Of a DNA stretch of 64,000 nt, positions 492-31,100 are shown piece by piece. The stretch is from the IMG/VR virus record IMGVR_UViG_3300025732_000017; one strand, given 5' to 3'. The notes below the pieces were generated by a model. The model saw nothing but the letters and a program-made list of their open reading frames with translations. It had not been told where the DNA came from and made no database searches. The stretch comes from a virus. The translations under genes and the position numbers were made by a program. Within the stretch, counting starts at the first letter, position 1. Each line of letters starts with the position of its first letter.

Positions 492-1013
492 ATGAAGCCA
501 ATGAATGATATTATAGCGGCGCCGCGCAGCTGCGAGTGGATGTATCGGCGTGCATATCGTGCCATTTTATGGGACTTGTTTCTGGTGGACTATGTAAAGA
601 CCAGAATAATGTTAGATGTGGAACATGAGGATCTAAACCATGAAGTATAGAGTTTATACCAACGTTATTCATTCCATGTATGCTCGTCTGGATGATCAAA
701 TTGTTTCGGGATGCAGGCCTGGATTATTTGACGAGGCTGGATTGACCGTTGATATGGTAACGGTAATTGAAAAGGTACGCAGACCAGTTCTGGCCCAGAT
801 ATATTCGCAAATTGAACGCCCTGACATTTCCAATCAATCGGAAGATCAGTCATGAACGAGTCATTTGATGAAGTCTGGCAACAAGCCCGAAATCAAGTCT
901 GGAATCGTGTCATGAAACGAGTCAATGATGAGGTCTGGGGCAAAGTCTTCTGGGATGAAGTCTCGGATCAAGTCGAGGATCAAGTCTTGGATCAAGTTGA
1001 GGATCAGACATGA
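492..1013 (+). repeat. QVW mini-ORF array A: ORFs 492-650, 640-855, 852-1013
   Basis: Hand-translated; 852-1013 = MNESFDEVWQQARNQVWNRV...DQVEDQVLDQVEDQT; overlapping start/stop junctions; 492-650 only loosely related. Confidence 0.6.
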
Positions 1014-1082: not shown

Positions 1083-1955
1083 ATGGCTAAGACGAAGAAG
1101 AAGCTGGATAAGCTGACGCAGGCTCAGATTGATGCGATGCCCAAGTATGTTGAGAAGTGGGTCGCGATCGGTCTTTCCACTGAGCGTGTGGATTTTGAGA
1201 AGGTCAAGCCGCTTGTGGCCAAGTGCTACGAGAAGGCTGGATACAAGGTTCCAAACTTCCACTTTGCACAGGGTCCTGACGAGGGCTATGAGACGTATCT
1301 GGCTCTCGGTGGCAAGCCTGGGCGTTCCGAGTATACCTCGGGCTGCATGTTTGGTTCGATGGAAGCATCTTGGCTTTCCTACTACGACTACTACAAGAAC
1401 GAGACGGACATCGAGATTGACAACATTGACCACATGAAGGAGCTGGTCATGTCGTCTGGTTGGGTCTATCTCGGCGACACCGATGCGATTATCCATGATC
1501 GCCCGACGATCATTGCCCGCGACGAGCAGGGTCGTCTGCACTCGGAGACTGGTCCCGCTATTCAGTATGGTGATGGCTGGGAGCGTTTCTACTGGCACGG
1601 TAACTGCATTCCGCGCGAGTGGATCATGGAGCGTGAGAAGCTGACTGCGGAGATCGCCATCGGTCAGCAGAACGTCGAGCTGCGTCGTTGCGCGTGTGAG
1701 ATCCTTGGTTGGGCAAAGATCCTTGATAGTCTCAAGGCAACTGTGCTTGACGAGGACGAGGATCCGATGATCGGGACTCTGCTTGAGGTTGAGATTCCTG
1801 AGATTGGCAAGGAGAAGTTTCTGAAGGTTCTGTGTGGCACTGGTCGCACGTTTGCAATTCCGGTTCCTCCGGATGTGAATACTGCGCTTGAGGCCAATTC
1901 GTGGACGTATGGAATGGATCCGAAGATGCTGCGGGATCTTGAAGTTCGCACCTGA
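1083..1955 (+). CDS. DUF6745-type protein
   Basis: KWVAIGLST..., ASWLSYYDY, GRLHSETGPAIQYGDGW..YWHG, NVELRR, CGTGRTFAIPVPP..TALEA.SWTYG motifs. Confidence 0.75.
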   Translation: MAKTKKKLDKLTQAQIDAMPKYVEKWVAIGLSTERVDFEKVKPLVAKCYEKAGYKVPNFHFAQGPDEGYETYLALGGKPGRSEYTSGCMFGSMEASWLSYYDYYKNETDIEIDNIDHMKELVMSSGWVYLGDTDAIIHDRPTIIARDEQGRLHSETGPAIQYGDGWERFYWHGNCIPREWIMEREKLTAEIAIGQQNVELRRCACEILGWAKILDSLKATVLDEDEDPMIGTLLEVEIPEIGKEKFLKVLCGTGRTFAIPVPPDVNTALEANSWTYGMDPKMLRDLEVRT

Positions 1956-1998: not shown

Positions 1999-2584
1999 AT
2001 GAACATAGATGACAAGTTAGGAATCAAGTCAGAAATCCACAATGAATATCGATGATCAAGTCTGTGATCAAGTCTGTGATCAAGTCTGGAATCATGCTTG
2101 GCACGGTCAAGTCTGGGATCAAGTCGAGAATCAAGTCTGGATTCAAGTCTCGAATCAAGTCTGGAATCAAGTCAAGAGTCAAGTCTTGAATCAAGTCAGG
2201 AATCAAGTCAGGAATCCACAATGAACATTGATGACCAAGTAACAAATCATGTTAGCGATAGATGCCATATTGGATCCTCCGAAGAAATTTTCAAGCAAGT
2301 CTGCTGGGATTCATACTGTATGGTCTGGAGTAAAGTTAGAATTGAAGTCGGCAATCAAGTCCAAATTCTGGATTTAGTCTATCGTTGGATTCACAATGAA
2401 CATAGATGATACTGTAATAGGTTTGATTCGCAACGATCCAAACTTTACATTCCATAAAGAATGTGATAATACAAATCAGACCGTCCTATGGGAATTTGAT
2501 AGTCAGATATGGCGTAGAATATACATTGATGTTCTGCATGTAATAATGAATGATGCAGATTTTCCAGAATTCCGCGATACATGA
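1999..2584 (+). repeat. QVW mini-ORF array B: relic at 1999, ORFs 2042-2224, 2221-2409, 2396-2584
   Basis: All begin MNIDD; 12-bp units (g/a)atcaagtcNNN; later copies progressively diverged. Confidence 0.75.
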
Positions 2585-7351: not shown

Positions 7352-7668
7352 ATGAACATCGATGACCAAGTCTGGAATCAAGTCTGGAATCAAATCTATG
7401 ATCAACTCTTGAATCAAGTCAGGAATCAAGTCTATGATCAAGTCGAGGATCAAGTCAGGAATCAAGTCAGGAATCAAGTCTGGACTCAAGCCAGGAATCC
7501 ACAATGAACATCGATGACCAAGTCTACAATCAAGTCTGGGATCAAGTCTGGGATCAAGTCTGGAATCAAGTCTGGCTTCAAGTCTCGATTCGAGCCTGGG
7601 ACCAGGTTCGGAATCAATATCTTCAAGATGCCAATTCCAGGGCGCCAGAGAACACGGACTCCGCCTAA
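7352..7668 (+). repeat. QVW mini-ORF array C: ORFs 7352-7507 and 7504-7668
   Basis: MNIDDQVWNQVWNQ... and MNIDDQVYNQVWDQVWDQ...; ATGA coupling. Confidence 0.75.
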
Positions 7669-8480: not shown

Positions 8481-8601
8481 TGGCTAATTCCAGCCCTGAA
8501 GATGCCAATAATCCAGGAAAGATGCCAATTTCGTAACGTATGACGCAAAAGATGCCAATTCCAGGGCGTCAGAGAACACACAGAGACACAGGGAAACGAT
8601 A

Positions 8602-8857
8602 TATGCGCTATACAAAAGCTGACATTCCGCGGCGACCAGGTCGCAATTGGCACAAACGACGCATCATCGGCGGCATATGGATGGCAGAACAGCGATGGTA
8701 CCAAACGCCTGCGCTGCGCACCAGAGAGCGAATGGAGGACCTACAGCACCTCGCCGGACAGCCCAGGCGACGCCAGATGCCAAGGATCCTGCTATCGACG
8801 CTGCTCTGGCACGCCGCCGAGAACCGAAAAAGCCGCCTGAGGCGCCTAAGCCATTGA
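8602..8857 (+). CDS. Arg-rich hypothetical protein (start uncertain)
   Basis: Part of ORF 8540-8857; weak RBS. Confidence 0.3.
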
Positions 8858-8932
8858 TTCCATTAGGTAATTCCAGCCCTTGACAAGGCGCCTGATCTAG
8901 CATATTCTGTGACTCTGATTGCGGAGGTATCA

Positions 8933-9154
8933 ATGTCTCAGACGTTCTACACGGTCCATGTTCCTGACGGCGACGACCCTGGTCTGGGTAATTGGAAGCT
9001 GAGCACGGCCAGCCTGGCTATCGCCTTTGCACAGGATCTCGGCGTCAGGTGTGAGGTCCGAGTCCATGATGGCGACAAGATTCCCATGCGTCTATGCACT
9101 GTTCTCCCTGGGACCTTCGATGGCCATCCTAATCTTATCTGGCCCTATCCGTGA
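8933..9154 (+). CDS. Hypothetical protein
   Basis: Cassette ORF with GGAGG RBS. Confidence 0.6.
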   Translation: MSQTFYTVHVPDGDDPGLGNWKLSTASLAIAFAQDLGVRCEVRVHDGDKIPMRLCTVLPGTFDGHPNLIWPYP

Positions 9155-9259
9155 CGTGGACTTCTAACCCATTGATCTGATTGGGCAATTCCAGCCCTTG
9201 ACAAGGCGCCTGATCTAGCATATTCTGTGACTCTGATTGCGGAAGAGGAAAGGAAACCG

Positions 9260-10159
9260 ATGGCTACCATGAACCACACGGTCAGCTTTGACCGGGCTTG
9301 CGGCAAGTATGTCGCCATGTGCGATGGCAAGGTTGTCACCAAGACCAAGTCGCTGAACCGTGCGAAGCGCCTGCTCCGTATGCACCTCGACGGCCTCCGT
9401 GAGGTTGCCAAGGCTGAGGTTGATGCGGGTCTCAATTTCTCGGTGGCTGATCGGTTCACCTTTCTCGAGGCCCTGACCACGATGGTCGCGAACGGCACCT
9501 CGCCGTCGGCTATTGTCACGGGTGAGGGTGGTATCGGCAAGACGCACACCGTCACCAAGACCCTCGCCTCCATGGGCTTTGTCAATTGCATGGAGATCCC
9601 CGAGGGCGTGTCGGTGCCAACTCGCAAGACCTACACCATGGTCAAGGGCTACTCCACGCCCTATGCGCTGTACCGTACGCTGTGCGAGAATGCCGACCGC
9701 ATCGTGGTGTTCGATGACTGCGACAGCATCCTCAAGGACCCGACGGCCATCAACCTGCTCAAGGCGGCGCTCGACAGCTACTCCAAGCGTATCGTCTGCT
9801 GGCAGTCCGAGGTCAAGGGCTCCGACCTGCCCACGTCCTTCGTGTTCAATGGTGGGGTGATCTTCATCTCCAACTACACGCTGGGCACGCTGGATCAGGC
9901 CGTGCGTACCCGTGCGCTGTGCGTGGATCTGAGCATGACGGCCGACCAGAAGCTGGAGCGCATGGAGCAGATCCTGCGCGAGCCGGATTATCGCACCGAC
10001 GTGTCGCTATCCATGAAGCTGGAGGCGCTGGGTGCGATCCGCGAGAACCTGTCGAAGGTCAAGAACCTGTCGCTCCGTACGCTGAAGCAGGTGATCGACG
10101 TTCGCAAGGGCAACCGCAAGGACTGGGCCAAGCTGGCTCTGTATGTGATGTCCCAGTAA
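9260..10159 (+). CDS. AAA+ ATPase
   Basis: Walker A GEGGIGKT, Walker B IVVFDDCD, sensor FISN, Arg finger RTR. Confidence 0.85.
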   Translation: MATMNHTVSFDRACGKYVAMCDGKVVTKTKSLNRAKRLLRMHLDGLREVAKAEVDAGLNFSVADRFTFLEALTTMVANGTSPSAIVTGEGGIGKTHTVTKTLASMGFVNCMEIPEGVSVPTRKTYTMVKGYSTPYALYRTLCENADRIVVFDDCDSILKDPTAINLLKAALDSYSKRIVCWQSEVKGSDLPTSFVFNGGVIFISNYTLGTLDQAVRTRALCVDLSMTADQKLERMEQILREPDYRTDVSLSMKLEALGAIRENLSKVKNLSLRTLKQVIDVRKGNRKDWAKLALYVMSQ

Positions 10160-10259
10160 CCCCTTGATCTGACACGGTAATTCCAGGGGTTGACAAAGTA
10201 CCAATCCCTGGATATACTGGTACCAAGATTGGAAAACAGGATTCGGGAAAGGAATCTTC

Positions 10260-10442
10260 ATGCTCATTGGAATTTTGAACTACGCTACCTCTTTCATGTT
10301 GGCCTTTGCCGCCGCGTGCTGGAATCGGGGAGGCTGGGCTAATGCGTTGATCATTAGTGCGCTTCTCCTGTTGTCCTTGTTCAATCTAATCCTCGGGGCC
10401 ATGCACTACCCCGGACTCCTGGTGTTGCCGCCAAAACTGTGA
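10260..10442 (+). CDS. Small two-TM membrane protein
   Basis: Two hydrophobic segments; follows cassette promoter. Confidence 0.6.
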   Translation: MLIGILNYATSFMLAFAAACWNRGGWANALIISALLLLSLFNLILGAMHYPGLLVLPPKL

Positions 10443-10559
10443 GAGGCTAACCGAAGGCACTCATACCTAACCACTTGATCTGACACGGTAATTCCAGGGG
10501 TTGACAAAGTACCAATCCCTGGATATACTGGTATCAAGATTGGAAAACAGGAGAAACGA

Positions 10560-11021
10560 ATGGCGTTCATGGATCAGAAGCGGAAGGCGCAGCTCGCGCC
10601 TGGTATCAAGGCGGTGCTTCGGAAGTACGGCCTCAAGGGTTCGCTGAGGGTGGGCAACCACACCTCGCTGAGCCTGACCCTGACCGAGGGTTCGCTGGAC
10701 CTCATCGGTAATGGGGTGGCTGTGCTCCATCGTGAGGCTGACACCTACCCGCATGATATCAAGGGCAAGTGGATGCGTGAGGCGGCTGCCTACATGCAGA
10801 AGACCCAGTCCACGGATGTCAACACCTACCATGCGAAGGATGCGTTCACGGGCGTCTGCCAGAAGGCGATCCTGGAGCTGATCGCGGCGATGAATGTGGG
10901 CAACCACGACGAGTCCGATCCTCAGACTGACTACTTCAATGTCGGCTGGTACATCCATGTGAACGTCGGTCGGTGGAACAAGCCCTACCGGTTCACCGGC
11001 GCCAATCGGAAGGTGGCCTGA
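10560..11021 (+). CDS. Conserved phage protein, paralog of 6188-6634
   Basis: Shared N- and C-terminal motifs. Confidence 0.8.
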   Translation: MAFMDQKRKAQLAPGIKAVLRKYGLKGSLRVGNHTSLSLTLTEGSLDLIGNGVAVLHREADTYPHDIKGKWMREAAAYMQKTQSTDVNTYHAKDAFTGVCQKAILELIAAMNVGNHDESDPQTDYFNVGWYIHVNVGRWNKPYRFTGANRKVA

Positions 11022-11023
11022 TC

Positions 11024-11206
11024 ATGACGCGCAAGCAGCGATTGGAGCAGGCCCTATCCCATCTTGGGAAGGTGGAGGATCTTCTGAATCCCAAGGGTGT
11101 CGTGCCTGGACCGGACATGCTCCTCACCTCCCTGGAGAGGACCATTGAGGAGGTGGAATACCAGCTGGCTATGCTGGAGATGGCGGAAAGTGCCAACCAG
11201 GAGTAA
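11024..11206 (+). CDS. Hypothetical protein
   Basis: ORF; stop is the TAA of the repeat at 11204. Confidence 0.6.
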   Translation: MTRKQRLEQALSHLGKVEDLLNPKGVVPGPDMLLTSLERTIEEVEYQLAMLEMAESANQE

Positions 11207-11296
11207 CTGGTTGATTCCACTCACAAATTTCCACCCTTGACTAGGGTGCCAATACCAAGTATTCTGTGAACATACTGAAAGACAAAGGAGATACCA

Positions 11297-12052
11297 ATGC
11301 GTAACTATGAAATGGTTCTTATGGCCCTGAAGTCGGGCGAGACCAAGACGGCTACGGACCTCAAGGCGGAGCTGCCGGGTCTGGAGTGGTGGAACATGCA
11401 CAAGTATGTGGCGCGTGCCAAGTACCTGGCAGGTGCTGAGATTGAGCTGATGAAGGCTGGCAAGCCGCTCAAGGCTGCCCGTGCGCGGGATGCTGAGACT
11501 CTGCGCCTGGTGAATGCCGACAAGTTCAAGGCCTGGTCGCCTGTCACCAAGACTGGTGGTCCGCTGTTCCGCAAGGCCAACCCGAAGGCCAAGACCCAGA
11601 AGGCCAAGGTGAAGGCTGCGAAGCCTCCGAAGCCTGCGAAGCCGACCAAGACCAAGATCCCTCCGGCGATCCAGGCGAAGCTGAATGCCCAGCATGCCAA
11701 GTCCAACTCGCTGATCGCCGCTGCGATGGCGAAGGATCCGTGGCTCGGTCGTCGTGGCCGTGTCACCCAGGAGGCTACCAATCTGGTCAATCCGGTGGCG
11801 CCGCCCGATCAGCCCGGTCATGGTGAGCTGAAGGGTGCCAATGTCGTGGATATGATCAAGGCTGAGCTGGCTGCGACTGCGCCGGCGAAGGGTACCAAGA
11901 AGGCTGCTGCTCTTCCGCGTGGTCCGAAGGCGACGCCTGCGCCTGCTCCGGTCAAGGTCGAGCGGGTGTCGGATGTGGTGACTCCGCTGTCGGATGATCC
12001 GCTGGACATTCCGGACTTCCTCCGTATCAAGTCCACCAAGACGGAGGAGTGA
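11297..12052 (+). CDS. Lys/Ala/Pro-rich basic protein, H1-like tail
   Basis: KAKTQKAKVKAAKPPKPAKPTKTK; strong RBS and promoter. Confidence 0.7.
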   Translation: MRNYEMVLMALKSGETKTATDLKAELPGLEWWNMHKYVARAKYLAGAEIELMKAGKPLKAARARDAETLRLVNADKFKAWSPVTKTGGPLFRKANPKAKTQKAKVKAAKPPKPAKPTKTKIPPAIQAKLNAQHAKSNSLIAAAMAKDPWLGRRGRVTQEATNLVNPVAPPDQPGHGELKGANVVDMIKAELAATAPAKGTKKAAALPRGPKATPAPAPVKVERVSDVVTPLSDDPLDIPDFLRIKSTKTEE

Positions 12053-12055
12053 GGA

Positions 12056-12205
12056 GGCGCCCAGCACAACCCTGGGCTAGCGTGCTTCCGCGCGAATAAA
12101 GCAGGTGGTTCCTGCAGGAAGGCAAGTCTGCTCGGCGTAGGAGCGACGGTGGGATGGGCACCGCAGGTTAGCCGGACAAAGGGATCGGACTAACCACCCA
12201 TCACC
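12056..12205 (+). ncRNA. Candidate structured RNA
   Basis: Consecutive hairpins plus a long interrupted stem (ggtg/gatggg/ggttag vs ctaacc/cccatc/acc). Confidence 0.4.
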
Positions 12206-12296
12206 TAAGCCCTTGATCTGATTGGGCAATTCCAGCCTTGACAAAGTACCAATTCTCGCCTATACTGGTACCAAGATCGGAAAGAGGAGAGCAGAG

Positions 12297-12518
12297 ATGG
12301 TTCGCAAGTATACCAACATGGTTCTGGAGATGGTTGAAGAGGGCATCCTGGACAAGGATGTGGTCATCATGGCCTGCCTGAAGTACATGTCGGAGGCTGA
12401 GGTCCGTGACATGGCCGAGGCGAACGGGTTCGTCCCCGAGGATGAGGAGGAGGAGATTCGGTCCGACTATGAGGCCAATCGCACCTATGAGCGAGTGCGA
12501 GTGGTGGCTGGGCAGTAA
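12297..12518 (+). CDS. Hypothetical protein
   Basis: Cassette ORF; start corrected to follow the RBS. Confidence 0.65.
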   Translation: MVRKYTNMVLEMVEEGILDKDVVIMACLKYMSEAEVRDMAEANGFVPEDEEEEIRSDYEANRTYERVRVVAGQ

Positions 12519-12607
12519 GCCCTTGATCTGATTGGGCAATTCCAGGGCTTGACAGAGCGTCAATTCTCGCCTATACTGAGTTCATGATCAAGCAAAGGGA
12601 GACGGTG

Positions 12608-12853
12608 ATGCAGACGTTCCGTGTTGATATCGACCTCGACGGCGATAGCACTATTGGCGAGTTCCTGGAGACTCTCGCGGAGTATCGCGGCTCGGCGCAA
12701 ATTGTGTCCTATGACGCGGCTCCCGACGCTGGCGGTTGCCCGACGATGGTGCTGGAATTCACGTCCTATGAGGTTGCGCTGGAGTTCGCCATGGAATGGT
12801 TCGGCGAGTCGTTTGAGGATGCCAAGGAGTACGTGGAGACGATTACGGTGTAA
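12608..12853 (+). CDS. Acidic protein, paralog of 16858-17109
   Basis: MQTFRV.IDLD...YDA.PDAGG...EFTSYE...EYVETITV. Confidence 0.75.
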   Translation: MQTFRVDIDLDGDSTIGEFLETLAEYRGSAQIVSYDAAPDAGGCPTMVLEFTSYEVALEFAMEWFGESFEDAKEYVETITV

Positions 12854-12941
12854 CCCCTTGACCTGACAAGGCTTTTCCAGGGCCTTGACAGCGCCCTGGT
12901 TTCGCCCTATACTGGTACCAAGATCGGAAAGGGAAACAGAG

Positions 12942-13115
12942 ATGACCAAGACCAAGACCCCGACCAGGAAGCCCCGCAAGCCCACCATCCTCTCTTCCTG
13001 GGAATGGTCACAGTATCATCAGCAGATGATCGAGTACCTCGAGGAGAAGCTGGAGCGCAGGGAGCAGAAGATCGCGCAGCTGGAACGCCAGATCGAGCGC
13101 CTGCAGGGTAAGTAA
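12942..13115 (+). CDS. Small coiled-coil protein
   Basis: Cassette ORF; basic N-terminus. Confidence 0.6.
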   Translation: MTKTKTPTRKPRKPTILSSWEWSQYHQQMIEYLEEKLERREQKIAQLERQIERLQGK

Positions 13116-13200
13116 CCCATTGATCTGACACGGCTTTTCCAGGGCTTGACAGAAGCCTGATCCAGCCCTATACTGGTACCAAGATCGGAAAGGGAAACAG

Positions 13201-13941
13201 ATGCAGACGAACCTCCTCACTCGCGGCAACCCCAAGGTCCTGAAGGGCGAGAGCCAGGGCTACCTGACCTTCATCCTTCACCTGGCGCCGGCGTCGCTGT
13301 CGGGCTACAACACCTGCGCCGCGGCGACTGATGGCTGCAAGCTGGCGTGTCTGAACACCGCTGGTCGTGGTGGCATTCCCAATGCTCGCCCCGTGACCGT
13401 GCAGGCTCGCAATGGTGCCATGACGGTGTCCAACGTGATCCAGGCGGCTCGCATCCGCAAGACCGTGTGGTTCTTCCAGGACCGCGTCGGCTTCATGGCT
13501 CAGCTGGTCAAGGAAATCCGTGCGGGCATCCGCTATGCTCAGAAGATGGGCCTGATCCCCGTGTTCCGTCTGAATGGCACCTCCGATCTGCGCTGGGAGA
13601 GTGTCGGTGTGGATGGTGCGCGCAATGTCATGGAGCTGTTCCCGGACGTGCAGTTCTATGATTACACCAAGCTGTCCAATCGCAGGGACCTGCCTGCCAA
13701 CTACAAGCTGACCTTCTCCCTGGCGGAGAATAACGACCTCCAGGCGTGGGCTGCTGCTTCGGCTGGTCTGAACGTCGCTGCGGTGTTCCGTGGCAAGCTG
13801 CCCGCGACCTTCATGGGTCGCACGGTGATCAATGGTGATGACTCGGATCTGCGTTTCCTTGATCCGGTGGGTGTGGTGGTTGGTCTGAAGGCGAAGGGCA
13901 AGGCGAAGCGGGACACGACGGGCTTTGTGAGGGCTGCCTAA
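13201..13941 (+). CDS. GP88-family protein (radical-SAM-like Cys motif)
   Basis: NTC.....GC...C, RLNGTSD, FYDYTK, DLRFLDP motifs. Confidence 0.75.
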   Translation: MQTNLLTRGNPKVLKGESQGYLTFILHLAPASLSGYNTCAAATDGCKLACLNTAGRGGIPNARPVTVQARNGAMTVSNVIQAARIRKTVWFFQDRVGFMAQLVKEIRAGIRYAQKMGLIPVFRLNGTSDLRWESVGVDGARNVMELFPDVQFYDYTKLSNRRDLPANYKLTFSLAENNDLQAWAAASAGLNVAAVFRGKLPATFMGRTVINGDDSDLRFLDPVGVVVGLKAKGKAKRDTTGFVRAA

Positions 13942-14029
13942 GCCATTGATCTGATTGGGCAATTCCAGCCTTGACAGAGCACCAGTTTCGCCCTATACTG
14001 GTACCAAGATCGGAAACAAGGAGACAGCG

Positions 14030-14263
14030 ATGGCCAAGTCCAAGACCAAGTCCAAGACCAAGTCCAAGACCAAGTCCAAGACCAAGGTCTATGTCGTGCT
14101 GAATGAGTCGAAATGGCCCACGACGGTTGTGGGTGTGTTCAGTACGCGCGGCCTCGCCATGGCAGGCGCCAAGAAGGAGCGCCAGAAATGGCCGAACATC
14201 GGGATTCTTCGGATTTCCCATCACATGGTTGATAATCCCGAATGGTACGTGGGAAAGCCTTGA
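14030..14263 (+). CDS. Basic protein with KSKT repeats
   Basis: aagtccaagacc x4 perfect copies at 14036-14083. Confidence 0.65.
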   Translation: MAKSKTKSKTKSKTKSKTKVYVVLNESKWPTTVVGVFSTRGLAMAGAKKERQKWPNIGILRISHHMVDNPEWYVGKP

Positions 14264-14345
14264 TCTGACACAGCTTTTCCAGGGCCTTGACAGAGCACCA
14301 GTTTCGCCCTATACTGGTACCATGATCGGAAACAAGGAGACAGCG

Positions 14346-14603
14346 ATGACCAAGATCCGCTTCACGGCCCCCTCCCCTCGCGCCGACCGCATCCACGGCC
14401 TGACCAAGATGGGTCGCGCCATCGTGGACTACTTCGCGGCTCGCCCGGGTCAGGTGATCTCCCGCACCACGGTGGAGCTGCACCTCGCCTCGCGTGGCTT
14501 CAAGCGCCCCGCGGTCACCGCGACGGTCTGCTCGGATCTGGCCCACTCGGGTCATCTGAAGCCGATGCCGTTCGGCATGTACCAGTTCCGCGCTGCGGCC
14601 TAA
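14346..14603 (+). CDS. Possible winged-helix protein
   Basis: Cassette ORF; helix-turn-helix-like layout. Confidence 0.5.
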   Translation: MTKIRFTAPSPRADRIHGLTKMGRAIVDYFAARPGQVISRTTVELHLASRGFKRPAVTATVCSDLAHSGHLKPMPFGMYQFRAAA

Positions 14604-14617
14604 GGAAAGGATTGATC

Positions 14618-14728
14618 ATGCATACCATCACGTTCCTCGCTCAGTCGCTGGCTCTGGCTGGTGTTCTGTTCGCCGCTGGCGTCGGCCTGGTCGCGCTGAT
14701 CGGGTTCTTCGCTGATCGCAACCGCTAA
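14618..14728 (+). CDS. Single-TM micropeptide, 36 aa
   Basis: MHTITFLAQSLALAGVLFAAGVGLVALIGFFADRNR; AAGGA RBS. Confidence 0.55.
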   Translation: MHTITFLAQSLALAGVLFAAGVGLVALIGFFADRNR

Positions 14729-14739
14729 GGAGCAAGACC

Positions 14740-15021
14740 ATGTTTAGGATCACCGAAGGCAGGGGTTTTCAGATGACGTTCGCAAACGGATGGACGGTCT
14801 CTGTCCAATGGGGTGCTGGCAATTACTGTCCGAACCACCACGTCCTTCCGTCTGGTAAGTCGGAGAGGGCTTATGAAGATATGCAGCGTAAGCTGGGCGA
14901 GGAGGGCGTGCTTGTCGCGGAGGCAGGCTGGTGGAAGGGCTCCGGTGACGTGGAGGTTAGTGGTTTCATGACGCCCGACCAGGTTCTGGCCCTCATGGTC
15001 GAGCTGGCAGCTAGGGAGTAA
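14740..15021 (+). CDS. Conserved phage hypothetical protein
   Basis: GFQMTFANGWTVSVQWG..NYC motif; RBS. Confidence 0.65.
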   Translation: MFRITEGRGFQMTFANGWTVSVQWGAGNYCPNHHVLPSGKSERAYEDMQRKLGEEGVLVAEAGWWKGSGDVEVSGFMTPDQVLALMVELAARE

Positions 15022-15025
15022 GACC

Positions 15026-15115
15026 GTGGTCTGCATTTCCGTGGACACGCTGGCTCTGTTCGCATTTGGTATCAGTCTGGTCGTGCTGGCTCGACTGATC
15101 ACCCGCAACCGCTAA
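15026..15115 (+). CDS. Single-TM micropeptide, 29 aa
   Basis: GTG start, GGAG RBS, ends RNR like 14618. Confidence 0.5.
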   Translation: MVCISVDTLALFAFGISLVVLARLITRNR

Positions 15116-15125
15116 GGAGATGCAC

Positions 15126-15221
15126 ATGGATTGCCTTCAGCCGCTAGTTTTCTTTCTGACCTACGCTGCGGTGCTCGGCATCGCCGTGTGGGTTGTAATC
15201 GCCATCCGTAATGAGGAGTAA
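15126..15221 (+). CDS. Single-TM micropeptide, 31 aa
   Basis: AAGGAG RBS; hydrophobic core. Confidence 0.55.
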   Translation: MDCLQPLVFFLTYAAVLGIAVWVVIAIRNEE

Positions 15222-15225
15222 GATC

Positions 15226-15423
15226 ATGACAATGGATTCCAGGGAGCTGGCGAAGGCGCTGGCTGAGAAGGCGAAGGCTGCTTCCATTCCCTATTCGGAG
15301 TATGAGGCGAAGGTGGACTATCCGTTCGCCCTGGGCTATCTGACAGGCACCGTGCAGGATCTTCTGCTCCGCCTGTCGCCAGGCCAGCGCGAGACTATTG
15401 CGAAGCAGTACGGTATCAGCTGA
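15226..15423 (+). CDS. Hypothetical protein
   Basis: GAGGAG RBS. Confidence 0.6.
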   Translation: MTMDSRELAKALAEKAKAASIPYSEYEAKVDYPFALGYLTGTVQDLLLRLSPGQRETIAKQYGIS

Positions 15424-15433
15424 GGAGACAGAG

Positions 15434-15664
15434 ATGACCGAGACCCTGGAGCTGGCGAAGGCGCTGGCTGAGAATGAAGAGCTGCGCGTGGCCAATAAAG
15501 AGTTGGTGTTGGGTATCACCACCATAACTCTCCGCCTTCTGGAAGATATTGATCGACAGCGCGCGGAGAATGAAGGGCTGCGCGCGGAGAATGAAGGGCT
15601 GCGCGCAGAGCTGCGCCAGGCGATCAAGGAGCTGGCAGATTGTGAACAGTTCAGCGACTACTAA
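15434..15664 (+). CDS. Coiled-coil protein with 21-nt tandem repeat
   Basis: RAENEGL x2; GAGGAG RBS. Confidence 0.6.
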   Translation: MTETLELAKALAENEELRVANKELVLGITTITLRLLEDIDRQRAENEGLRAENEGLRAELRQAIKELADCEQFSDY

Positions 15665-15775
15665 CTCGCCGGCTCCGACCGCTAACCCCTTGATCTGACA
15701 CGGTAATTCCAGCCTTGACATAGGCCTGATCCCACCCTATACTGAGTACATAAGGTGGAAACAAGGAGACGACAG

Positions 15776-15985
15776 ATGACCCAGATCCCCGCAACCAAGG
15801 TCTATATCCTCTTCGTGGAAGAGACCGCGCATGGTGGTTGGGAGTGGGAGACCCATCTCCATGGTGTATATGCGACGCGGGAGAAGGCTCAGGAGGCCCG
15901 TAAGGCTCTCGCAGCCAAGAGGGCGTTCTCGATTCGCTGCGGTGAGTGGAAGTCGCGCATCCGCGCTGTGCCTCTGCATGCCTAA
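15776..15985 (+). CDS. Hypothetical protein
   Basis: Cassette ORF. Confidence 0.65.
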   Translation: MTQIPATKVYILFVEETAHGGWEWETHLHGVYATREKAQEARKALAAKRAFSIRCGEWKSRIRAVPLHA

Positions 15986-16077
15986 CCCCTTGATCTGACA
16001 CGGCAATTCCAGCCTTGACATAGGCCTGATCCCGCCCTATACTGAATACATAAGTTGGAAACACAAGGAGACGACGA

Positions 16078-16404
16078 ATGGCGAAGCTGCTGATCCAGAC
16101 CCAGGTCTATGAGAACTACGGCGCCCATGATTGGAACGGCGAGGGCGAGTGCCCGCAGTACTGGAAGCCGAAGTTTGGTTCGGACTACGTCCTTCCCAAT
16201 TTCACCGCCTTCACCGACGCGGCCTCGGTGGTCGAGGCGCTGAAGCCTCAGGTGGAGGCCAACGACCACAGCTGGCGCGAGTGGATCATCCACTGGGAGG
16301 TGCTGGCCGATGACCAGCCGACGCCCTGGGAGGCCGACCAGCTCCGCTGGGATGGTCGAGTGACCTTCCCAGCCAAGGTCCTCACCCTCCCGGTGGCGGC
16401 CTGA
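16078..16404 (+). CDS. Conserved phage protein
   Basis: TQVYENYGAHDW.GEGECPQYWK.K.G..Y motif. Confidence 0.7.
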   Translation: MAKLLIQTQVYENYGAHDWNGEGECPQYWKPKFGSDYVLPNFTAFTDAASVVEALKPQVEANDHSWREWIIHWEVLADDQPTPWEADQLRWDGRVTFPAKVLTLPVAA

Positions 16405-16423
16405 ACGGAACAAGGAGACAGAG

Positions 16424-16767
16424 ATGACGCAGACCTTCGATTTCGGCTTCGGCCCTGTCCCGGCTCACAAGCACCCGAATGGCGGTGGCTGGGTCGCCGA
16501 CACCGCTTATGTCGCCGACACCGCTTATGTCGGGCCTGATGCTCGGGTCTTCGGCAATGCTGTGGTCGGCAGCAATGCTCGGATCTACGGCTATGCTCGG
16601 GTCTACGGCAATGCCTGGGTCTGCGACGATGCTCGGGTCGGCGACAAGGCTCTGGTCTCCGATATGCTATAGTCAACGGCAATGCTGTGGTCTCCGGCAA
16701 TGCTGTGGTCGGCGGCAGCGCTTGGGTCGGCGGCAATGCTTGGGTCACCGAGGGTACTCACACCTAA
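16424..16767 (+). pseudogene. Hexapeptide-repeat (left-handed beta-helix) protein with frameshift near 16664
   Basis: VFGNAVVGSNARIYGYARVYGNAWV repeats continue in the -1 frame (AIVNGNAVVSGNAVVGGSAWV) to TAA 16765. Confidence 0.6.
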
Positions 16768-16857
16768 CCCATTGATCTGACACGGCAATTCCAGCCTTGA
16801 CCTGGCGCCAGATCCGCCCTATACTGAGTACATAAGTTCGAAACAAGGAGAGCAGAG

Positions 16858-17109
16858 ATGCAGACGTTCCGTGTTGTGATAGACCTTGACAGCGAGTGGA
16901 CTCTTGGCGAGTTCCTCAACCTGCTCTCTGAGCATGGCTCGCCGCGGATTGTGTGCTATGACGCGACTCCCGACGCTGGCGGCAGCCCGATGATGATCCT
17001 TGAATTCACGTCCTATGAGGATGCGCTGGGGTTCGCCCAGCTTTGGTTCGCCGAGGACGAGGCGCCATCGCGGATGTCGGCGGAGTACGTGGAGACGATT
17101 ACGGTGTAA
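16858..17109 (+). CDS. Acidic protein, paralog of 12608-12853
   Basis: Shared motifs. Confidence 0.75.
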   Translation: MQTFRVVIDLDSEWTLGEFLNLLSEHGSPRIVCYDATPDAGGSPMMILEFTSYEDALGFAQLWFAEDEAPSRMSAEYVETITV

Positions 17110-17192
17110 CCCCTTGATCTGACACGGCTTTTCCAGCCTTGACAGAGGCCTGATCGGGACCCTATACTGAGTACATGATCAAGGAGACAGAG

Positions 17193-17537
17193 ATGACCCA
17201 GACCTTCACTGCCCCGCACGACCTCGACCTCGCGCTGACGGCCTACGCCGATGCGCTGGAGCAGAAGCGCACCGCGGCGGCCAACATGGCCAGCTACCAC
17301 GTGTCGGTCACCTTTGAGCCCGGGTCCAAGTACCTGCGCGTGGTGATGGCTGATGGGTACAGGACCACGGGCACGCACCGGTCCGCCTACGCCTTCATCG
17401 TGGCGAAGGACATGGGCCAGTTCAAGGTGGGTGACATCCTGAAGGCGGCCTCCTGGAAGGCTCCGGCCAAGAACTTCGCCCGGGGCAATGTGTTCCGCCC
17501 GGAGACCTACGCGAAGCACAGCCCGTACGGGCTTTGA
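17193..17537 (+). CDS. Conserved phage protein, paralog of 4088-4429
   Basis: FEPGSKYLRVV..SAYAFI..GDILKAASWKAPAKN..RGNV. Confidence 0.75.
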   Translation: MTQTFTAPHDLDLALTAYADALEQKRTAAANMASYHVSVTFEPGSKYLRVVMADGYRTTGTHRSAYAFIVAKDMGQFKVGDILKAASWKAPAKNFARGNVFRPETYAKHSPYGL

Positions 17538-17557
17538 TCCGAACCAAGGAGTCTATC

Positions 17558-17740
17558 ATGAACCAGCCGACCAAAGCCTTCCTCATCCAGCTCCGCGACC
17601 TCTGCCGCGCCCATGGCGTGGATTTCTCTGCTGACCTGAATGGCGTGTCCTTCACCAGCGCCGATGAAAGCCCGATCTACTGGGTCCACGCCGACGTGGA
17701 GAGCCTCGAGGACCTCGAGGCCCAGCTGGCGCAGGACTGA
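17558..17740 (+). CDS. Hypothetical protein
   Basis: AAGGAG RBS. Confidence 0.6.
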   Translation: MNQPTKAFLIQLRDLCRAHGVDFSADLNGVSFTSADESPIYWVHADVESLEDLEAQLAQD

Positions 17741-17833
17741 TCTAAGCCATTGATCTGACACGGCTTTTCCAGCCTTGACCTGGCGCCAGATCCGCCCTAT
17801 ACTGAGTACATGATCAAGGAAAGGAAGACAGAG

Positions 17834-17914
17834 ATGAACCGGATCGTGATCGCCTGCCACCTGTTCAATACGGCCGTGGCTTTTACCTACCTCGCGACGT
17901 GGCTGTTCAAGTAA
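17834..17914 (+). CDS. Hydrophobic micropeptide, 26 aa
   Basis: Directly behind promoter 17775 and RBS. Confidence 0.5.
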   Translation: MNRIVIACHLFNTAVAFTYLATWLFK

Positions 17915-17946
17915 GCAACCACCCCATCCCAACCAAGGAGATCCCT

Positions 17947-18660
17947 ATGACCGTGACGTATCACGACCACTCCACCACCCCCTTCACCTACCGCACCGAC
18001 GCCTTCAAGGGCGCGACCCTGGCTGTCTGGTCCGAGTGCATCCGCATCATGTCGGATGTGTGGGCGCACGAACAGCGCGCCCTGGTGTGGGATGAGGAAG
18101 CCGGCAAGTTCGGCACCCTCTCGCTGGACAATTCCGAATTCTCCAGCAAGACCCAGCCCCAGCACGCCACCGTGGACGCGCCGGCCGAGCTGATCGCCCG
18201 CTACCGCGATTCCGTCATCGCCCGCAACCACACCCGCCTCCTCGAGGCCTTCAAGGCCAAGAAGGAAGAGGAGCGCATGGCCGTCCGCACCGGCGCCGTC
18301 GTCCTGGTCAAGCGTGGCCGCAAGGACATCGGCAAGGTGGGGAAGGTGGTCTTTATCAAGGACATGCCCTACTCCACCGGCTGGCGCTCCCACCTGGCGC
18401 CCAAGGCCTGCATCGCCCTCGATGGTCAGAAGACCACCGTCCAGGGCCGCTATGGCAAGACCTTCGACCGCTACACCAACACCATCTGGGTGTGGGTGAA
18501 GAACCTGGACCTGGCGAAGGTGCCGGCGCCCTATGAGGTCACCGACGAGGATCTGGCGCGCATCCGCCAGCAGGCTGAAGCCGAGGCTGACATGCAGCTG
18601 ATCCGCTGGGGCATGAAGGAGGTGTCGTGGCGCAAGCCGGCGAGCTGGCAGGCAGCGTGA
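17947..18660 (+). CDS. Protein with KOW/SH3-like central domain
   Basis: TGAVVLVKRGRKDIGKVGKV; AAGGAG RBS. Confidence 0.6.
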   Translation: MTVTYHDHSTTPFTYRTDAFKGATLAVWSECIRIMSDVWAHEQRALVWDEEAGKFGTLSLDNSEFSSKTQPQHATVDAPAELIARYRDSVIARNHTRLLEAFKAKKEEERMAVRTGAVVLVKRGRKDIGKVGKVVFIKDMPYSTGWRSHLAPKACIALDGQKTTVQGRYGKTFDRYTNTIWVWVKNLDLAKVPAPYEVTDEDLARIRQQAEAEADMQLIRWGMKEVSWRKPASWQAA

Positions 18661-18667
18661 GGTGGCG

Positions 18668-18712
18668 CCCCGGTGGTGTAAAGCACAGAGCGAAGCGTGA
18701 ACACCACCGGGG
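18668..18712. other. 12-bp inverted repeat
   Basis: ccccggtggtgt ... acaccaccgggg, 21-nt loop. Confidence 0.7.
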
Positions 18713-18969: not shown

Positions 18970-18998
18970 TTGACTATGTGTTTTTGGAATGATACACT
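18970..18998 (+). promoter_or_regulatory. sigma70-type promoter for QVW array D
   Basis: TTGACT-17bp-TACACT. Confidence 0.65.
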
Positions 18999-19031: not shown

Positions 19032-20460
19032 GTGGAAAACATTCATTCTGATATTCTGAGTCCTCTTCATAGTATTCTACATGCTCATATATGGATGAAT
19101 GTAGGGTTCAGAGGGTTCAAATTTGATAGCAACATGGATGTTTTGAATGGTGTTTCATCAATGATTCATCCTGTTAGCTGGAGCTGTGTTCAAGAGATAT
19201 GGAAGCAGGATGTGAACTCATGAATTCTGTCAAAGATCAAGTTTGGGATCGAGTTTGGGATCAAGCCAGAATTCAAGTCTGTGATCAAGCCGGGAATCCA
19301 GTCTGGATTGTCTGGATTCAAGTCTGGAATCAAGTCAGGTATAAGTCATGAATTCTGTCAAAGATCAAGTTTGGAATCAAGTTTGGGATCGAGTTTGGAA
19401 TCAAGTTTGGGATCAAGTTTGGGATCAAGTCGGGATTCAAGTCTGTGATCAAGCCGGGAATCAAGTCTGGCTTCAAGTCTGGGATCAAGTCGGGAATCGA
19501 GCCCGGATTCAAATCAGGAATCAATCATGAATTCTGTCAAGAGTATGATTTGGGTTCAAACTCCACATCCAGTCATCTGGCATCAGCATCAAGCCTGGCT
19601 CCAAGTCTGGAATCAAGTCTGTGATCAATTCGGGAATCAAGTCTTCCTTCAAGTCGAGGATCATCAAGCCTGGAATCAAGTCTTGTATCAAATCAGGATT
19701 CAATCATGAAGTCTGTCAAGTCTAAATTCTGGTATCAAGTTAGGGATCAAGTCGGGAATCAAGTCTCCAATCAAGTCTTGTCTCAAGTCTGGGGTCAAGT
19801 CTGGAATCAAGACGGAGATACGTTGTGAAGTCTGTCAAAGATCAAGTTCATGACCAAGTCTGGCGTCAAGTCAGGAATCAAGTCTGGGATCAAGTCAGGA
19901 TTCAAGACGGACATCAAGTCTGGCATCAAGTCTTTGATCAAATCGAGAATCAAGTCATGAATCAAATCTGGGCTCAAGTCTGGTATCAATCATGAAACAT
20001 GTTGATCGAGAAGTCTGGTTTCAAGTCTGGCTTCAAGTCAGGAATCAAGTCGAGGATCAAGTCTTGGATCAAGTCGAGAATCAAATCTGGAATCAAGTTC
20101 GGGATCAAGTCGGAGATACGTTATGAATTCTGTCAAGAGTATGATTTGGGTTCAAACTCCAACTCTAGTCATCTGGCGTCAAGTGTCGCATCCCTTCTGG
20201 GATAGAATCAGGAGTGAAATCTATATGCCTGTTTGGAGGGAGCCGAATAATGTTTTGATTGCTCTGAAGCAGGATGTGAACTCATGAATTCTGTCAACGA
20301 TCCGGTCTGGAATCGAGCATCTAGTTCAGCTCCACCCGTCAGCCATCAAGTCACGCCTCGTGTCTCTGGTCCGGTCTGGAATGAAGTGTATATTCCTGTT
20401 TTGGAAACACTCAACATTGTTTTGACTGCTCTGAAGCAGGATATTACAAGTGGTTCATGA
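19032..20460 (+). repeat. QVW mini-ORF array D: nine coupled ORFs
   Basis: 19032-19223, 19220-19351, 19348-19530, 19527-19709, 19706-19828, 19825-19995, 19992-20126, 20123-20287, 20284-20460; every junction is ATGA or GTGA. Confidence 0.85.
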
Positions 20461-20551: not shown

Positions 20552-20725
20552 ATGAGAACACTCGCATTTGCTATTGCTACGATTTTTGCTCTGAATACTG
20601 GTGTTGCTTTGGCTGCTGATCCACCAAAGGCTCCTGCTGCGAAGACTGACGCTGCCAACAAGAAGAAGGCACCAAAGAAGAATGCTGATGCAAAGAAGAC
20701 ACCAGCGCCAGCTGCCAAGAAGTAA
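20552..20725 (+). CDS. Small exported K/A/P-rich protein
   Basis: Signal peptide ending ALA-A; GGAG RBS. Confidence 0.65.
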   Translation: MRTLAFAIATIFALNTGVALAADPPKAPAAKTDAANKKKAPKKNADAKKTPAPAAKK

Positions 20726-20738: not shown

Positions 20739-20773
20739 GGGGGGCTCTACAGTCGTGGAGCCTCCTTTTTTTT
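20739..20773 (+). terminator. Intrinsic terminator
   Basis: ggggctc...gagcctcc stem followed by T9. Confidence 0.7.
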
Positions 20774-20786
20774 ATTGGAGGAAGGA

Positions 20787-21182
20787 ATGATAGAGTGCTT
20801 GATCTTGGGTGATTCCATTGCTGTTGGCATACAGCAGCATCGCATTGAATGTGCGTCATATGCACATGTCGGATGGACATCGGAGAAATGGAATCGTACA
20901 TACCTGAACAAGGATTTGTCTGCACAAGTCGTTGTCATATCCCTTGGCTCCAATGATTGGTCCGATAAGGTTACCAAGTATGAACTGATGCGTCTCCGCG
21001 AGAAGGTTCGTGCCGATCTCGTGTTTTGGATATTGCCCGCGATAAAGCCCGAGATACGAAACGTGGTGCGTGAGGTCGCTGACATGCGTGGTGACTTGGT
21101 CGTGCCAATTACAGATATATCCAAGGATGGTGTTCATCCGACGCCAGCTGGATACAAGGAACTTGCAAGAAAGGTAAAATGA
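20787..21182 (+). CDS. SGNH/GDSL hydrolase
   Basis: LGDSI, GSND, DGVHP blocks. Confidence 0.85.
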   Translation: MIECLILGDSIAVGIQQHRIECASYAHVGWTSEKWNRTYLNKDLSAQVVVISLGSNDWSDKVTKYELMRLREKVRADLVFWILPAIKPEIRNVVREVADMRGDLVVPITDISKDGVHPTPAGYKELARKVK

Positions 21183-30069: not shown

Positions 30070-30722
30070 TGAAGAAGTTTCGTCATGCATTTGTGAATCT
30101 TCCGCAGTTGACGGAAGAATATATTGACGGAAGGAGACACTACAAGACTCCAGAAGGTAATGTGTATCCTTCCGTCACTACCATTCTCTCGCGTCTACCA
30201 AACGAAAGTTTGCGTGAGTGGCAAAAGAGAGTTGGTGAAGAAGAAGTAAATCGTGTTTCCAAAGTATCTGCTCGTCGTGGCACCAATCTTCATGAAATAT
30301 GTGAGCGATATCTATTGAATGAAGAAAGACCGATGCGTGGACACATGCCGGATGTTCAAGGCATGTTTGTAGAATTGTGCAAGTATATTGATCGGATAGA
30401 TGAGATTTATGCGATTGAAGCACAGTTGTATTGTGACACATATCAATTTGCCGGACGATGCGATGTCATTGGTACATTTGATGGGCATCCTGCAATCATG
30501 GACTTCAAGACTACGAAGTCTGAAGTTGATTCCAGCATGGATAAGGTCAAGAAGTATTTCATGCAGTTATCCGCATATTCTCTTGCGTTTGAGGAAAGAA
30601 CTGGTCAGGAAATAAATCTTGGTGTGCTGTTGTTTGCATCCAATGAGACTGAACCTAGTTGCATTCAAGCGGACTTGACCAAGTACAAGATGGAATTTAT
30701 TTCAGTTCTTGACAATCCCTAA
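30069..30722 (+). CDS. PD-(D/E)XK (RecB/Cas4-like) exonuclease
   Basis: YPSVTTIL, RGTNLH, AGRCD, IMDFKT, QLSAY. Confidence 0.85.
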   Translation: MKKFRHAFVNLPQLTEEYIDGRRHYKTPEGNVYPSVTTILSRLPNESLREWQKRVGEEEVNRVSKVSARRGTNLHEICERYLLNEERPMRGHMPDVQGMFVELCKYIDRIDEIYAIEAQLYCDTYQFAGRCDVIGTFDGHPAIMDFKTTKSEVDSSMDKVKKYFMQLSAYSLAFEERTGQEINLGVLLFASNETEPSCIQADLTKYKMEFISVLDNP

Positions 30723-30737
30723 ATATTAGATTATACT
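30709..30737 (+). promoter_or_regulatory. sigma70 promoter for tmRNA
   Basis: TTGACA-17bp-TATACT. Confidence 0.85.
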
Positions 30738-30743
30738 ATGGAT

Positions 30744-31070: not shown

Positions 31071-31100
31071 ACTTTCATAAATCGTAGAGGAGTAATCACG

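What the first reader, a model, noticed from the sequence alone, without database searches (positions are those of the whole stretch)
19032..20460. Nine-gene translationally coupled chain of Q/V/W tetrapeptide-repeat peptides
Nine ORFs of 40-63 aa are joined by 4-nt ATGA/GTGA overlaps. Each has an AGGA/AGGT/GGAG element 7-9 nt before its start, and the chain has its own promoter (18970). Preserved frames and coupling argue for translation. Units are mosaic: junction gaagcaggatgtgaactcATGAattctgtc recurs at 19202 and 20266, and a ~38-nt start recurs at 19527 and 20123, indicating recombination between units. With arrays A-C there are about 17 members. The 4-residue V/W periodicity with high Q/N/D content suggests coiled-coil or amyloid-like polymers. 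I do not recognise a described function.
Basis: partly seen in the sequence, partly recalled or inferred. Interest (0 to 1): 0.85.

Follow-up and report, generated by a model that had tools for sequence, protein, structure and literature searches.

The report
Detached QV-repeat minigenes of phage DUF6745
A large T4-like phage encodes a chain of nine tiny overlapping genes. Most are free-standing copies of a fast-changing four-residue repeat that thousands of related, unstudied DUF6745 proteins carry internally, and they are predicted to clip back onto the phage's own repeat-less DUF6745 protein.

Summary
Nine + strand ORFs of 40-63 aa (19032-20460) are joined by ATGA/GTGA overlaps. They follow an early-type promoter-like site and precede a terminator.

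- **Composition of the chain.** Six ORFs are x-Q-V-x tetrad repeats. Three (ORF1, 8, 9) are degenerate relatives.
- **Not an isolated oddity.** The peptides match (E down to 2e-35) the variable insert of long Pfam DUF6745 proteins.
- **Local partners.** The window has a repeat-less DUF6745 core (1083-1955) with its conserved 119-aa partner (73-432). It also has three further minigene arrays.
- **Recurrence.** The same design, a repeat-less core plus chains of coupled 48-106 aa QV minigenes, occurs in about 25 of 79 viral contigs.
- **Codon evidence.** Q/V codons differ between lineages but are uniform within an array. This indicates protein-level selection plus concerted evolution.
- **Docking model.** A model of ORF3 on the core passed its controls (ipSAE 0.65 vs 0.01). 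That pass may partly reflect the fused relatives.

Best reading: these are translated, interchangeable variable subunits of a split DUF6745 system. The target is unknown. I found no paper on it. This scan has already noted the same arrangement in other phage genomes. The coiled-coil/amyloid idea remains untested.

The parts
18970..18998 (+). promoter-like site TTGACT-17-TACACT with TG, of the window's early-promoter type
   Evidence: consensus match only
19032..19223 (+). ORF1, 63 aa, GTG start, degenerate member; C-terminal end ..KQDVNS shared with ORF8/9
   Evidence: start uncertain
19220..19351 (+). ORF2, 43 aa QV-repeat minigene (MNSVKDQVW...)
19348..19530 (+). ORF3, 60 aa QV-repeat minigene; used for homology searches and the docking model
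19527..19709 (+). ORF4, 60 aa, half-degenerate QV-repeat minigene; first 39 nt identical to ORF8
19706..19828 (+). ORF5, 40 aa QV-repeat minigene
19825..19995 (+). ORF6, 56 aa QV-repeat minigene, GTG start
19992..20126 (+). ORF7, 44 aa QV-repeat minigene; weak SD
20123..20287 (+). ORF8, 54 aa degenerate member (hydrophobic residues still about every 4th position)
20284..20460 (+). ORF9, 58 aa degenerate member
20739..20776 (+). terminator-like hairpin plus T run, probable end of the transcription unit (after a small signal-peptide ORF 20552-20725)
1083..1955 (+). repeat-less DUF6745 core (N-domain + C-domain, 290 aa), the only one in the genome
73..432 (+). 119-aa partner gene conserved next to DUF6745 genes
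   Evidence: (33 loci, counting this genome's own L080)
852..1013 (+). array A: one 53-aa repeat minigene just upstream of the core (ATGA-coupled to ORF 640-855)
2042..2584 (+). array B: three coupled minigenes (2042-2224, 2221-2409, 2396-2584; MNIDD starts), then ATGA-coupled to a YspA/SLOG gene
7352..7668 (+). array C: two coupled minigenes (7352-7507, 7504-7668)

Best explanation
The chain is one early transcription unit of a T4-like phage. It makes up to nine small proteins by coupled termination and re-initiation.

Six of them are free-standing versions of the hypervariable x-Q-V-x repeat. In most DUF6745 proteins that repeat is an insert between the N-domain and the C-domain. The other three are decayed copies.

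This phage keeps a repeat-less DUF6745 core and its partner gene, and it has moved the repeat into about 15 separate minigenes.

I infer the following steps:
- Each peptide folds as a helix.
- Its constant N-terminus (M-N/K-S-V-K) anchors it at the site where fused relatives carry the insert.
- The two variable residues of each tetrad are displayed, so a single core can carry many alternative recognition surfaces.
- New variants arise by slippage and patchwise recombination among the 12-nt units.

The target is unknown. A host component or a defence component is a reasonable guess.

Shown here: the anatomy, the homology, the co-occurrence and the codon pattern. Inferred only: binding in trans, helicity and a recognition role.
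For: **Homology.** ORF3 hits 57 long proteins at E down to 2.4e-35, most carrying PF20530. The architecture is N-domain, QV array, then DUF6745.

**Family size.** The core has 8445 cluster representatives, in both fused and repeat-less forms.

**Recurrence.**
- About 25 of 79 viral loci carry chains of 48-106 aa QV ORFs with 4-23 nt overlaps and lineage-specific fixed ends.
- A profile search found 771 small proteins of this kind.

**Linkage to the core.**
- A repeat-less core lies beside the chains in 14 or more loci.
- The partner gene is present in 33 loci, counting this genome's own L080.
- Two records whose arrays have no core within 4 kb do carry one elsewhere on the contig. One of them is a complete 209-kb phage.

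**Protein-level selection.**
- Q is encoded by CAA 1374 times and CAG 1363 times across lineages. V uses four different codons across lineages.
- Within any one array the Q and V codons are uniform.
- Variation sits at nt 1, 2, 10 and 11 of the 12-nt unit.

**Close relatives of another minigene phage.**
- Array indels are +12 and -3 nt. There is one 1-nt change, in a tail.
- Substitutions come in patches.
- Divergence is 8.1 per kb in the arrays against 1.7 per kb in the flanks.

**Docking model.**
- ipSAE median 0.65, best of 3 controls 0.01.
- That mark was reached by 58 of 80 solved complexes and 2 of 110 mismatched pairs.
- The runs share at least 56% of contacts, and partner pLDDT is at least 64.
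- Peptide residues 1-9 sit against core residues 86-89 and 129-132, next to the insertion site.

**A different recognition repeat in the same family.** In one cyanobacterial DUF6745 cluster, 89% of members carry LRR repeats.
Against: - There are no expression data.
- Fused homologues exist, so the docking pass may come from likeness. This is the split-gene effect.
- Only ORF3 was modelled.
- This chain lies 17 kb from the core.
- Arrays B and C use a different N-terminus (MNIDD).
- The core has no recognisable fold or catalytic assignment, so 'recognition' is argued by analogy.
- AlphaFold2 confidence for the repeat in a fused homologue is only 50-65.
- No close relative of this particular phage was found, so frame conservation at this locus could not be tested.
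Confidence: 0.55

Rival explanations
1. The peptides act on their own and independently of DUF6745. They would be self-assembling helical, coiled-coil or amyloid-like polymers, or small inhibitors that bind host proteins directly.
For: - They are Trp-, Gln- and Val-rich, with a strict 4-residue period.
- The chain is 17 kb from the core.
- In three small fragments and one phage population, no core lies within the DNA held.
Against: - A period of 4.0 is not a heptad.
- No test of self-association was possible.
- Every sufficiently complete record examined has a core.
- The same repeat is covalently part of DUF6745 in most relatives.
- The docking model passes its controls.
Confidence: 0.2
2. 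The peptides dock on the core as regulators or inhibitors, for example antidote-like lids that hold it inactive. They would not be recognition subunits.
For: - The same docking model applies.
- Most of the peptide lies along the core surface rather than protruding (interface list).
Against: - Hypervariability at two residues per tetrad, together with many paralogues, is unusual for a simple inhibitor.
- Fused forms carry the repeat permanently.
Confidence: 0.1
3. The ORFs are non-functional debris. On this view an expanding 12-nt repeat stays open in several frames by its own composition, and the ORFs are decaying copies.
For: - The repeat has no stops in three + frames or in some minus frames.
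- ORF1, 4, 8 and 9 are visibly degenerate.
- Gene callers sometimes call the minus strand.
Against: - Eight precise start/stop overlaps are present, with SD elements and a fixed N-terminus.
- The same design has different junction sequences in many lineages.
- Q-V is conserved through different codons.
- Indels are in frame in close relatives of another array.
Confidence: 0.08
4. The arrays matter as DNA. They would be GATC-dense tracts acting as a methylation sink, a nicking or recombination hotspot, or a decoy.
For: - The chain has 22 GATC per kb against 5.8 per kb genome-wide.
- In GC-rich fused genes, Asp in the repeat is GAT in 78% of cases, against 32% elsewhere in the same ORFs.
Against: - About half of the x1 positions in this window are AAT (Asn) and carry no GATC.
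- Conservation across lineages follows the protein sequence.
- The units are not independent, so the codon statistic is inflated.
Confidence: 0.07

Closest known systems
Pfam DUF6745 (PF20530) proteins with an internal QV tetrad array. Examples are the 'hypothetical protein' gp38 of Mycobacterium phage prophiGD102-1 (MW584211) and metagenomic proteins P0004, P0008 and P0018.
   Same: They share the x-Q-V-x repeat with W/R/G and D/N/A at the variable positions. The window also encodes the DUF6745 core and its partner.
   Different: Here the repeat is not part of the DUF6745 polypeptide. It is encoded as separate 40-63 aa genes in four arrays. The function of DUF6745 is itself unknown, and neither of my two structure searches of PDB chains found a fold match.
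Chains of stand-alone QV minigenes in uncultured phages. Examples are IMG/VR loci L001, L026, L040, L041, L065 and L078, and the JGI/ENA population L081-L084.
   Same: ORFs are 48-106 aa, with 60 aa very common, and have a fixed N-terminus and tail. Stop and start overlap. A repeat-less core and partner lie nearby.
   Different: This window's chain is more degenerate, with three non-repeat members. It lies 17 kb from the core and sits in a 197-kb T4-like genome. None of these elements is described in a paper I could find.
Short-period repeat recognition modules, namely LRR domains and pentapeptide repeats.
   Same: They are tandem short repeats with fixed structural residues and variable exposed residues. 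One cyanobacterial DUF6745 cluster carries LRRs.
   Different: The period here is 4 residues. There is no Pfam LRR or pentapeptide hit. The predicted structure is helical rather than a solenoid.
Diversity-generating retroelement variable regions.
   Same: Variation is focused on amino-acid-changing positions of a phage gene.
   Different: The genome has no reverse transcriptase. The changes are not adenine-specific. Variation looks like unit shuffling and patch conversion.

Membership tests
QV-repeat insert of DUF6745 (PF20530) proteins | Tetrad x-Q-V-x repeat with near-invariant Gln-Val | tested here: met
   There are 91 tetrads in the window's minigenes. Gln and V/I/A were the selection criteria. 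Among them, Gln is CAA in 89 of 91 and the third residue is Val in 76 of 91. x1 is D or N in 61 of 91, and x4 is W in 33 and R in 17.
QV-repeat insert of DUF6745 (PF20530) proteins | Significant sequence similarity to the repeat region of PF20530 proteins | tested here: met
   57 long proteins match at E from 2.4e-35 to 7e-3, most annotated PF20530. The repeat lies between the N- and C-domains.
DUF6745 domain proteins (PF20530) | Presence of the DUF6745 domain in the same polypeptide | tested here: not met
   No PF20530 hit for the chain's four tested ORFs (ORF1, 3, 6, 9) or the array B ORF 2042-2224; one search found none for ORF8 and the other two array B ORFs. Only 1083-1955 carries it.
Split DUF6745 system (core + partner + minigenes) | A repeat-less core and the 119-aa partner are present in the same genome | tested here: met
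   The core is at 1083-1955 and the partner at 73-432. The same trio occurs in L001, L012, L019, L026, L041, L043, L065 and L070/71.
Split DUF6745 system (core + partner + minigenes) | The minigene product binds the core | tested here: inconclusive
   In silico only. ipSAE was 0.65 against a best control of 0.01, a mark reached by 58 of 80 solved and 2 of 110 mismatched pairs. The pass may stem from likeness to fused homologues.
Coiled coil / amyloid-forming peptides | Heptad (or 11-residue) periodicity, or demonstrated self-assembly | tested here: inconclusive
   The period is 4.0. AlphaFold2 draws two long helices at pLDDT 50-65 in a fused homologue. Self-assembly cannot be tested with these tools.
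Pentapeptide / LRR repeat families | 5-residue A(D/N)LXX or LxxLxLxxN repeat; Pfam match | tested here: not met
   No such Pfam hit at E<=0.1, and the period is 4.
Diversity-generating retroelement target | Reverse transcriptase with a template repeat; adenine-specific changes | tested here: not met
   PF00078 is absent from the complete 197-kb record. Variable positions involve all four bases.

The most novel reading that the evidence does not exclude
Phages run a combinatorial plug-in recognition system. One DUF6745 core is retargeted by a genomic library of hypervariable QV-repeat micro-proteins. The library diversifies quickly through recombination of 12-nt units, possibly helped by their GATC density. 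This would be a protein-subunit analogue of variable-receptor systems, used against changing host factors or defences.
Probability: 0.25. Interest if true: 0.85.

Novelty: new variant of a known kind. Interest (0 to 1): 0.66.

Why it matters
DUF6745 is a large, mostly viral and wholly unstudied family, with 8445 sequence clusters. Its variable repeat is one of the fastest-changing parts of these phage genomes.

The split form found here separates the variable module from the core. That makes the system easy to test: express the core with individual 40-60 aa peptides, measure binding, and look for targets.

If the peptides are interchangeable recognition subunits, this would be a new way for phages to diversify specificity. 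It would also give a function to hundreds of unannotated micro-ORFs that gene callers often miss or place on the wrong strand.

Tried and rejected
- **Close relatives of this phage.** Megablast of the locus against cultured phages found nothing. Neighbour proteins 20775-21182 and 17899-18660 gave no viral-contig relatives. Frame conservation at this exact locus therefore could not be tested. I used a different phage population instead.
- **Function of the core.** Foldseek against the PDB found no match at E<=1e-3. VIA-align wide gave a best Z of 4.3 on a 49-residue piece. The atlas search returned only DUF6745 clusters.
- **Function of the partner.** It has no Pfam hit and no PDB sequence match. 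The atlas returned only viral hypothetical clusters.
- **Weak family hits.** The Pfam DUF4816 and SurA_N_2 hits and the weak phrog_5189 and phrog_7690 hits are below threshold. I take them as compositional.
- **RNA element.** Rfam finds only the tmRNA in the window.
- **DGR.** The genome has no reverse transcriptase.
- **Minus-strand PDLI ORF chain.** I rejected this. All its ORFs start with TTG, and the 4-nt overlaps follow from the reverse complement of TCAATCATGA. Arrays B and C do not show it. Fused homologues fix the QV frame.
- **Literature.** Searches for DUF6745, QVWDQV-type strings, and tetrapeptide repeat with phage found nothing relevant.

Full report
**Setting**

The window is bases 66436-130435 of a single 196,948-bp virus record. 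The record is 40.8% GC and CheckV rates it 100% complete.
- It has T4-type baseplate genes.
- It has PhoH, a PstS-like protein and a radical-SAM gene.
- It has an alphaproteobacterial two-piece tmRNA.

The first 20 kb is an early-type region. Almost every gene is on the + strand. It holds 44 sigma-70-like promoters against 14 expected, mostly TTGACA-17-TATACT.

**Observation**

Nine ORFs on the + strand run from 19032 to 20460 and are joined by ATGA or GTGA. Each next gene therefore lies one base back in frame.
- Upstream of eight of the nine starts, an AGGA, AGGT or GGAG lies 6-9 nt away. It is encoded by the last codons of the preceding gene. The site before 19992 is weak.
- A promoter-like site ends at 18998, and a terminator-like hairpin begins at 20739.
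- The duplicated junction (19202 and 20266, 90% over 52 nt) and the 39-nt shared start of ORF4 and ORF8 are both present.
- ORFs 2-7 are built from 12-nt units (TRF: 73.8 copies) that read x-Q-V-x. They are 19% Gln, 17.5% Val and 9% Trp.
- ORF1, 8 and 9 have lost the clean repeat. They keep a hydrophobic residue about every fourth position and share a C-terminal end.
- Six more members lie at 852-1013, 2042-2584 and 7352-7668. There are none elsewhere in the genome.

**Which strand and frame**

The minus strand also shows a chain of ORFs (PDLI repeats) with 4-nt overlaps. I reject it for four reasons:
- All of its ORFs start with TTG.
- The overlap is simply the reverse complement of the TCAATCATGA junction.
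- Arrays B and C do not show it.
- In long homologues the QV frame is continuous with two conserved domains, which fixes the reading frame.

**What it is related to**

ORF3 finds almost nothing among proteins of similar size when searched alone. Among longer proteins it finds 57 hits, at E down to 2.4e-35, most with Pfam PF20530 (DUF6745).

Those proteins have a 70-aa N-domain, a QV array of very variable length, and the DUF6745 C-domain.

The window's own DUF6745 gene (1083-1955; Pfam 3e-29) has both domains but no array. The family is large: 8445 cluster representatives at E<=1e-3, in both fused and repeat-less forms.

**Recurrence of the split form**

I fetched 79 viral contigs with ORF3.
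- About 50 carry fused genes of 350-580 aa.
- About 25 carry chains of 48-106 aa stand-alone QV ORFs with overlaps of 4 to 23 nt. Each lineage has its own fixed N-terminus (MNSVK, MKLKSV, MKSVSNQV, MNKVEVQV, MKNL) and its own tail.
- I built HMMs for the two DUF6745 domains. They place a repeat-less core of about 290 aa directly beside the chains in L001, L002, L012, L019, L026, L039, L041, L043, L049, L054, L065, L070/71 and L075.
- The 119-aa gene at 73-432 has homologues next to the DUF6745 gene in 33 loci, one of which (L080) is this genome's own.
- I checked five records that have chains but no core within 4 kb. The complete one (209 kb) and a 26-kb fragment carry a core 6-15 kb away. The three without one are fragments of 3-17% completeness.
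- A profile of 28 minigene products finds 771 small proteins in public data, all unnamed.

**Selection**

Across lineages, Gln is CAA 1374 times and CAG 1363 times. Val is GTC, GTT, GTG or GTA. Inside any one array the codons are uniform. The protein is therefore conserved while arrays are homogenised internally.

In this window, variation is concentrated at nt 1, 2, 10 and 11 of the unit. These are the amino-acid-changing positions of x1 (D/N) and x4 (W, R, E, C, G, L). Third positions are quiet.

No close relative of this phage was available, so I compared four near-identical contigs of another phage that has about 25 minigenes, many of exactly 60 aa.
- Differences in the arrays are one +12-nt unit (GATCAAGTCTGG), one -3-nt change, and one 1-nt change that lengthens a tail.
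- Substitutions fall in tight patches of 5-12, as conversion between units would produce.
- Divergence is 8.1 per kb in the arrays and about 1.7 per kb in the flanks.

**Structure and docking**

| Model | Result |
|---|---|
| Core alone, AlphaFold2 | pLDDT 94, pTM 0.84 |
| Core vs PDB, Foldseek | no match at E<=1e-3 |
| Core vs PDB, VIA-align wide | best Z 4.3 |
| Fused homologue (P0018), AlphaFold2 | array drawn as two long helices (61-119, 127-176); pLDDT 50-65 |
| Core + ORF3 complex | model supports binding but does not show it; ipSAE median 0.65, best of three controls 0.01 |

For the complex model:
- The mark it reached was reached by 58 of 80 solved complexes and 2 of 110 mismatched pairs.
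- The runs share at least 56% of contacts, and partner pLDDT is at least 64.
- My own alignments were used, so those calibration counts hold only roughly.
- The best-defined contacts join peptide residues 1-9 to core residues 86-89 and 129-132. The rest of the peptide lies along helices 16-31 and 93-118, around the point where fused relatives carry the insert.
- Because fused homologues exist, this pass may reflect likeness rather than independent evidence of binding.

The atlas search adds one further point: in one cyanobacterial DUF6745 cluster, 89% of members carry LRR repeats. That fits a recognition role for the variable module.

**Reading**

The chain is a set of real, co-translated minigenes. 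They are the detached variable module of a split DUF6745 system. Docking in trans and target recognition are inferences. The function of the core is unknown.

Rivals are independent polymers or inhibitors, regulators of the core, neutral debris, and a DNA-level role of the GATC-rich tracts. Each is weighed in its own section.

**Novelty**

No paper mentions DUF6745 or these repeats.

This scan has already recorded the same arrangement in other phage genomes, and in this window's first 2.6 kb. I re-tested its main claims here on this genome. The family is catalogued only as a DUF, and the split minigene form is undescribed.

Noticed in passing
window 19220-20126; loci L003-L079: The repeats are GATC-dense: 22 per kb here against 5.8 per kb genome-wide. 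In GC-rich fused genes, Asp inside the repeat is GAT in 78% of cases, against 32% outside the repeat in the same ORFs. This hints at a DNA-level constraint such as Dam-type methylation, nicking or recombination. The units are not independent, so the statistic is inflated.
   Followed up: partly
window 19190-20108, minus strand: A mirror chain of six TTG-start ORFs (PDLI repeats) has TTGA overlaps. It is a by-product of the junction sequence. Gene callers do call such minus-strand ORFs in related contigs.
   Followed up: yes
window 1-18000: There are 44 sigma-70-like promoters against 14 expected. Most are exact TTGACA-17-TATACT on the + strand and precede one- or two-gene cassettes.
   Followed up: partly
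window 8000-18700: This block is 56-60% GC. The late-gene region beyond 26 kb is 32-40% GC. The QV chain sits exactly at the switch.
   Followed up: no
window 30705-31073: A phage-encoded alphaproteobacterial two-piece (permuted) tmRNA with tag ANDNYASEMALAA.
   Followed up: partly
window 2581-2970 and 6847-7341: A YspA/SLOG-family gene is ATGA-coupled to the end of array B. A dual-specificity phosphatase gene lies directly upstream of array C.
   Followed up: no
window 20552-20725: A small ORF with a signal-peptide-like start and a Lys/Ala/Pro-rich tail lies between the chain and the terminator. It is probably in the same transcript.
   Followed up: no
L081-L084 (JGI/ENA contigs of 12-41 kb): A phage population with about 25 QV minigenes, many exactly 60 aa (183 nt), in several coupled chains. 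No DUF6745 core lies within the 10-12 kb held. The protein P0259 is seen on 64 contigs.
   Followed up: partly
ESM Atlas cluster (row 2): A cyanobacterial DUF6745 cluster in which 89% of members carry LRR_4 and 81% carry LRR_8. The family therefore combines its core with more than one kind of repeat.
   Followed up: no
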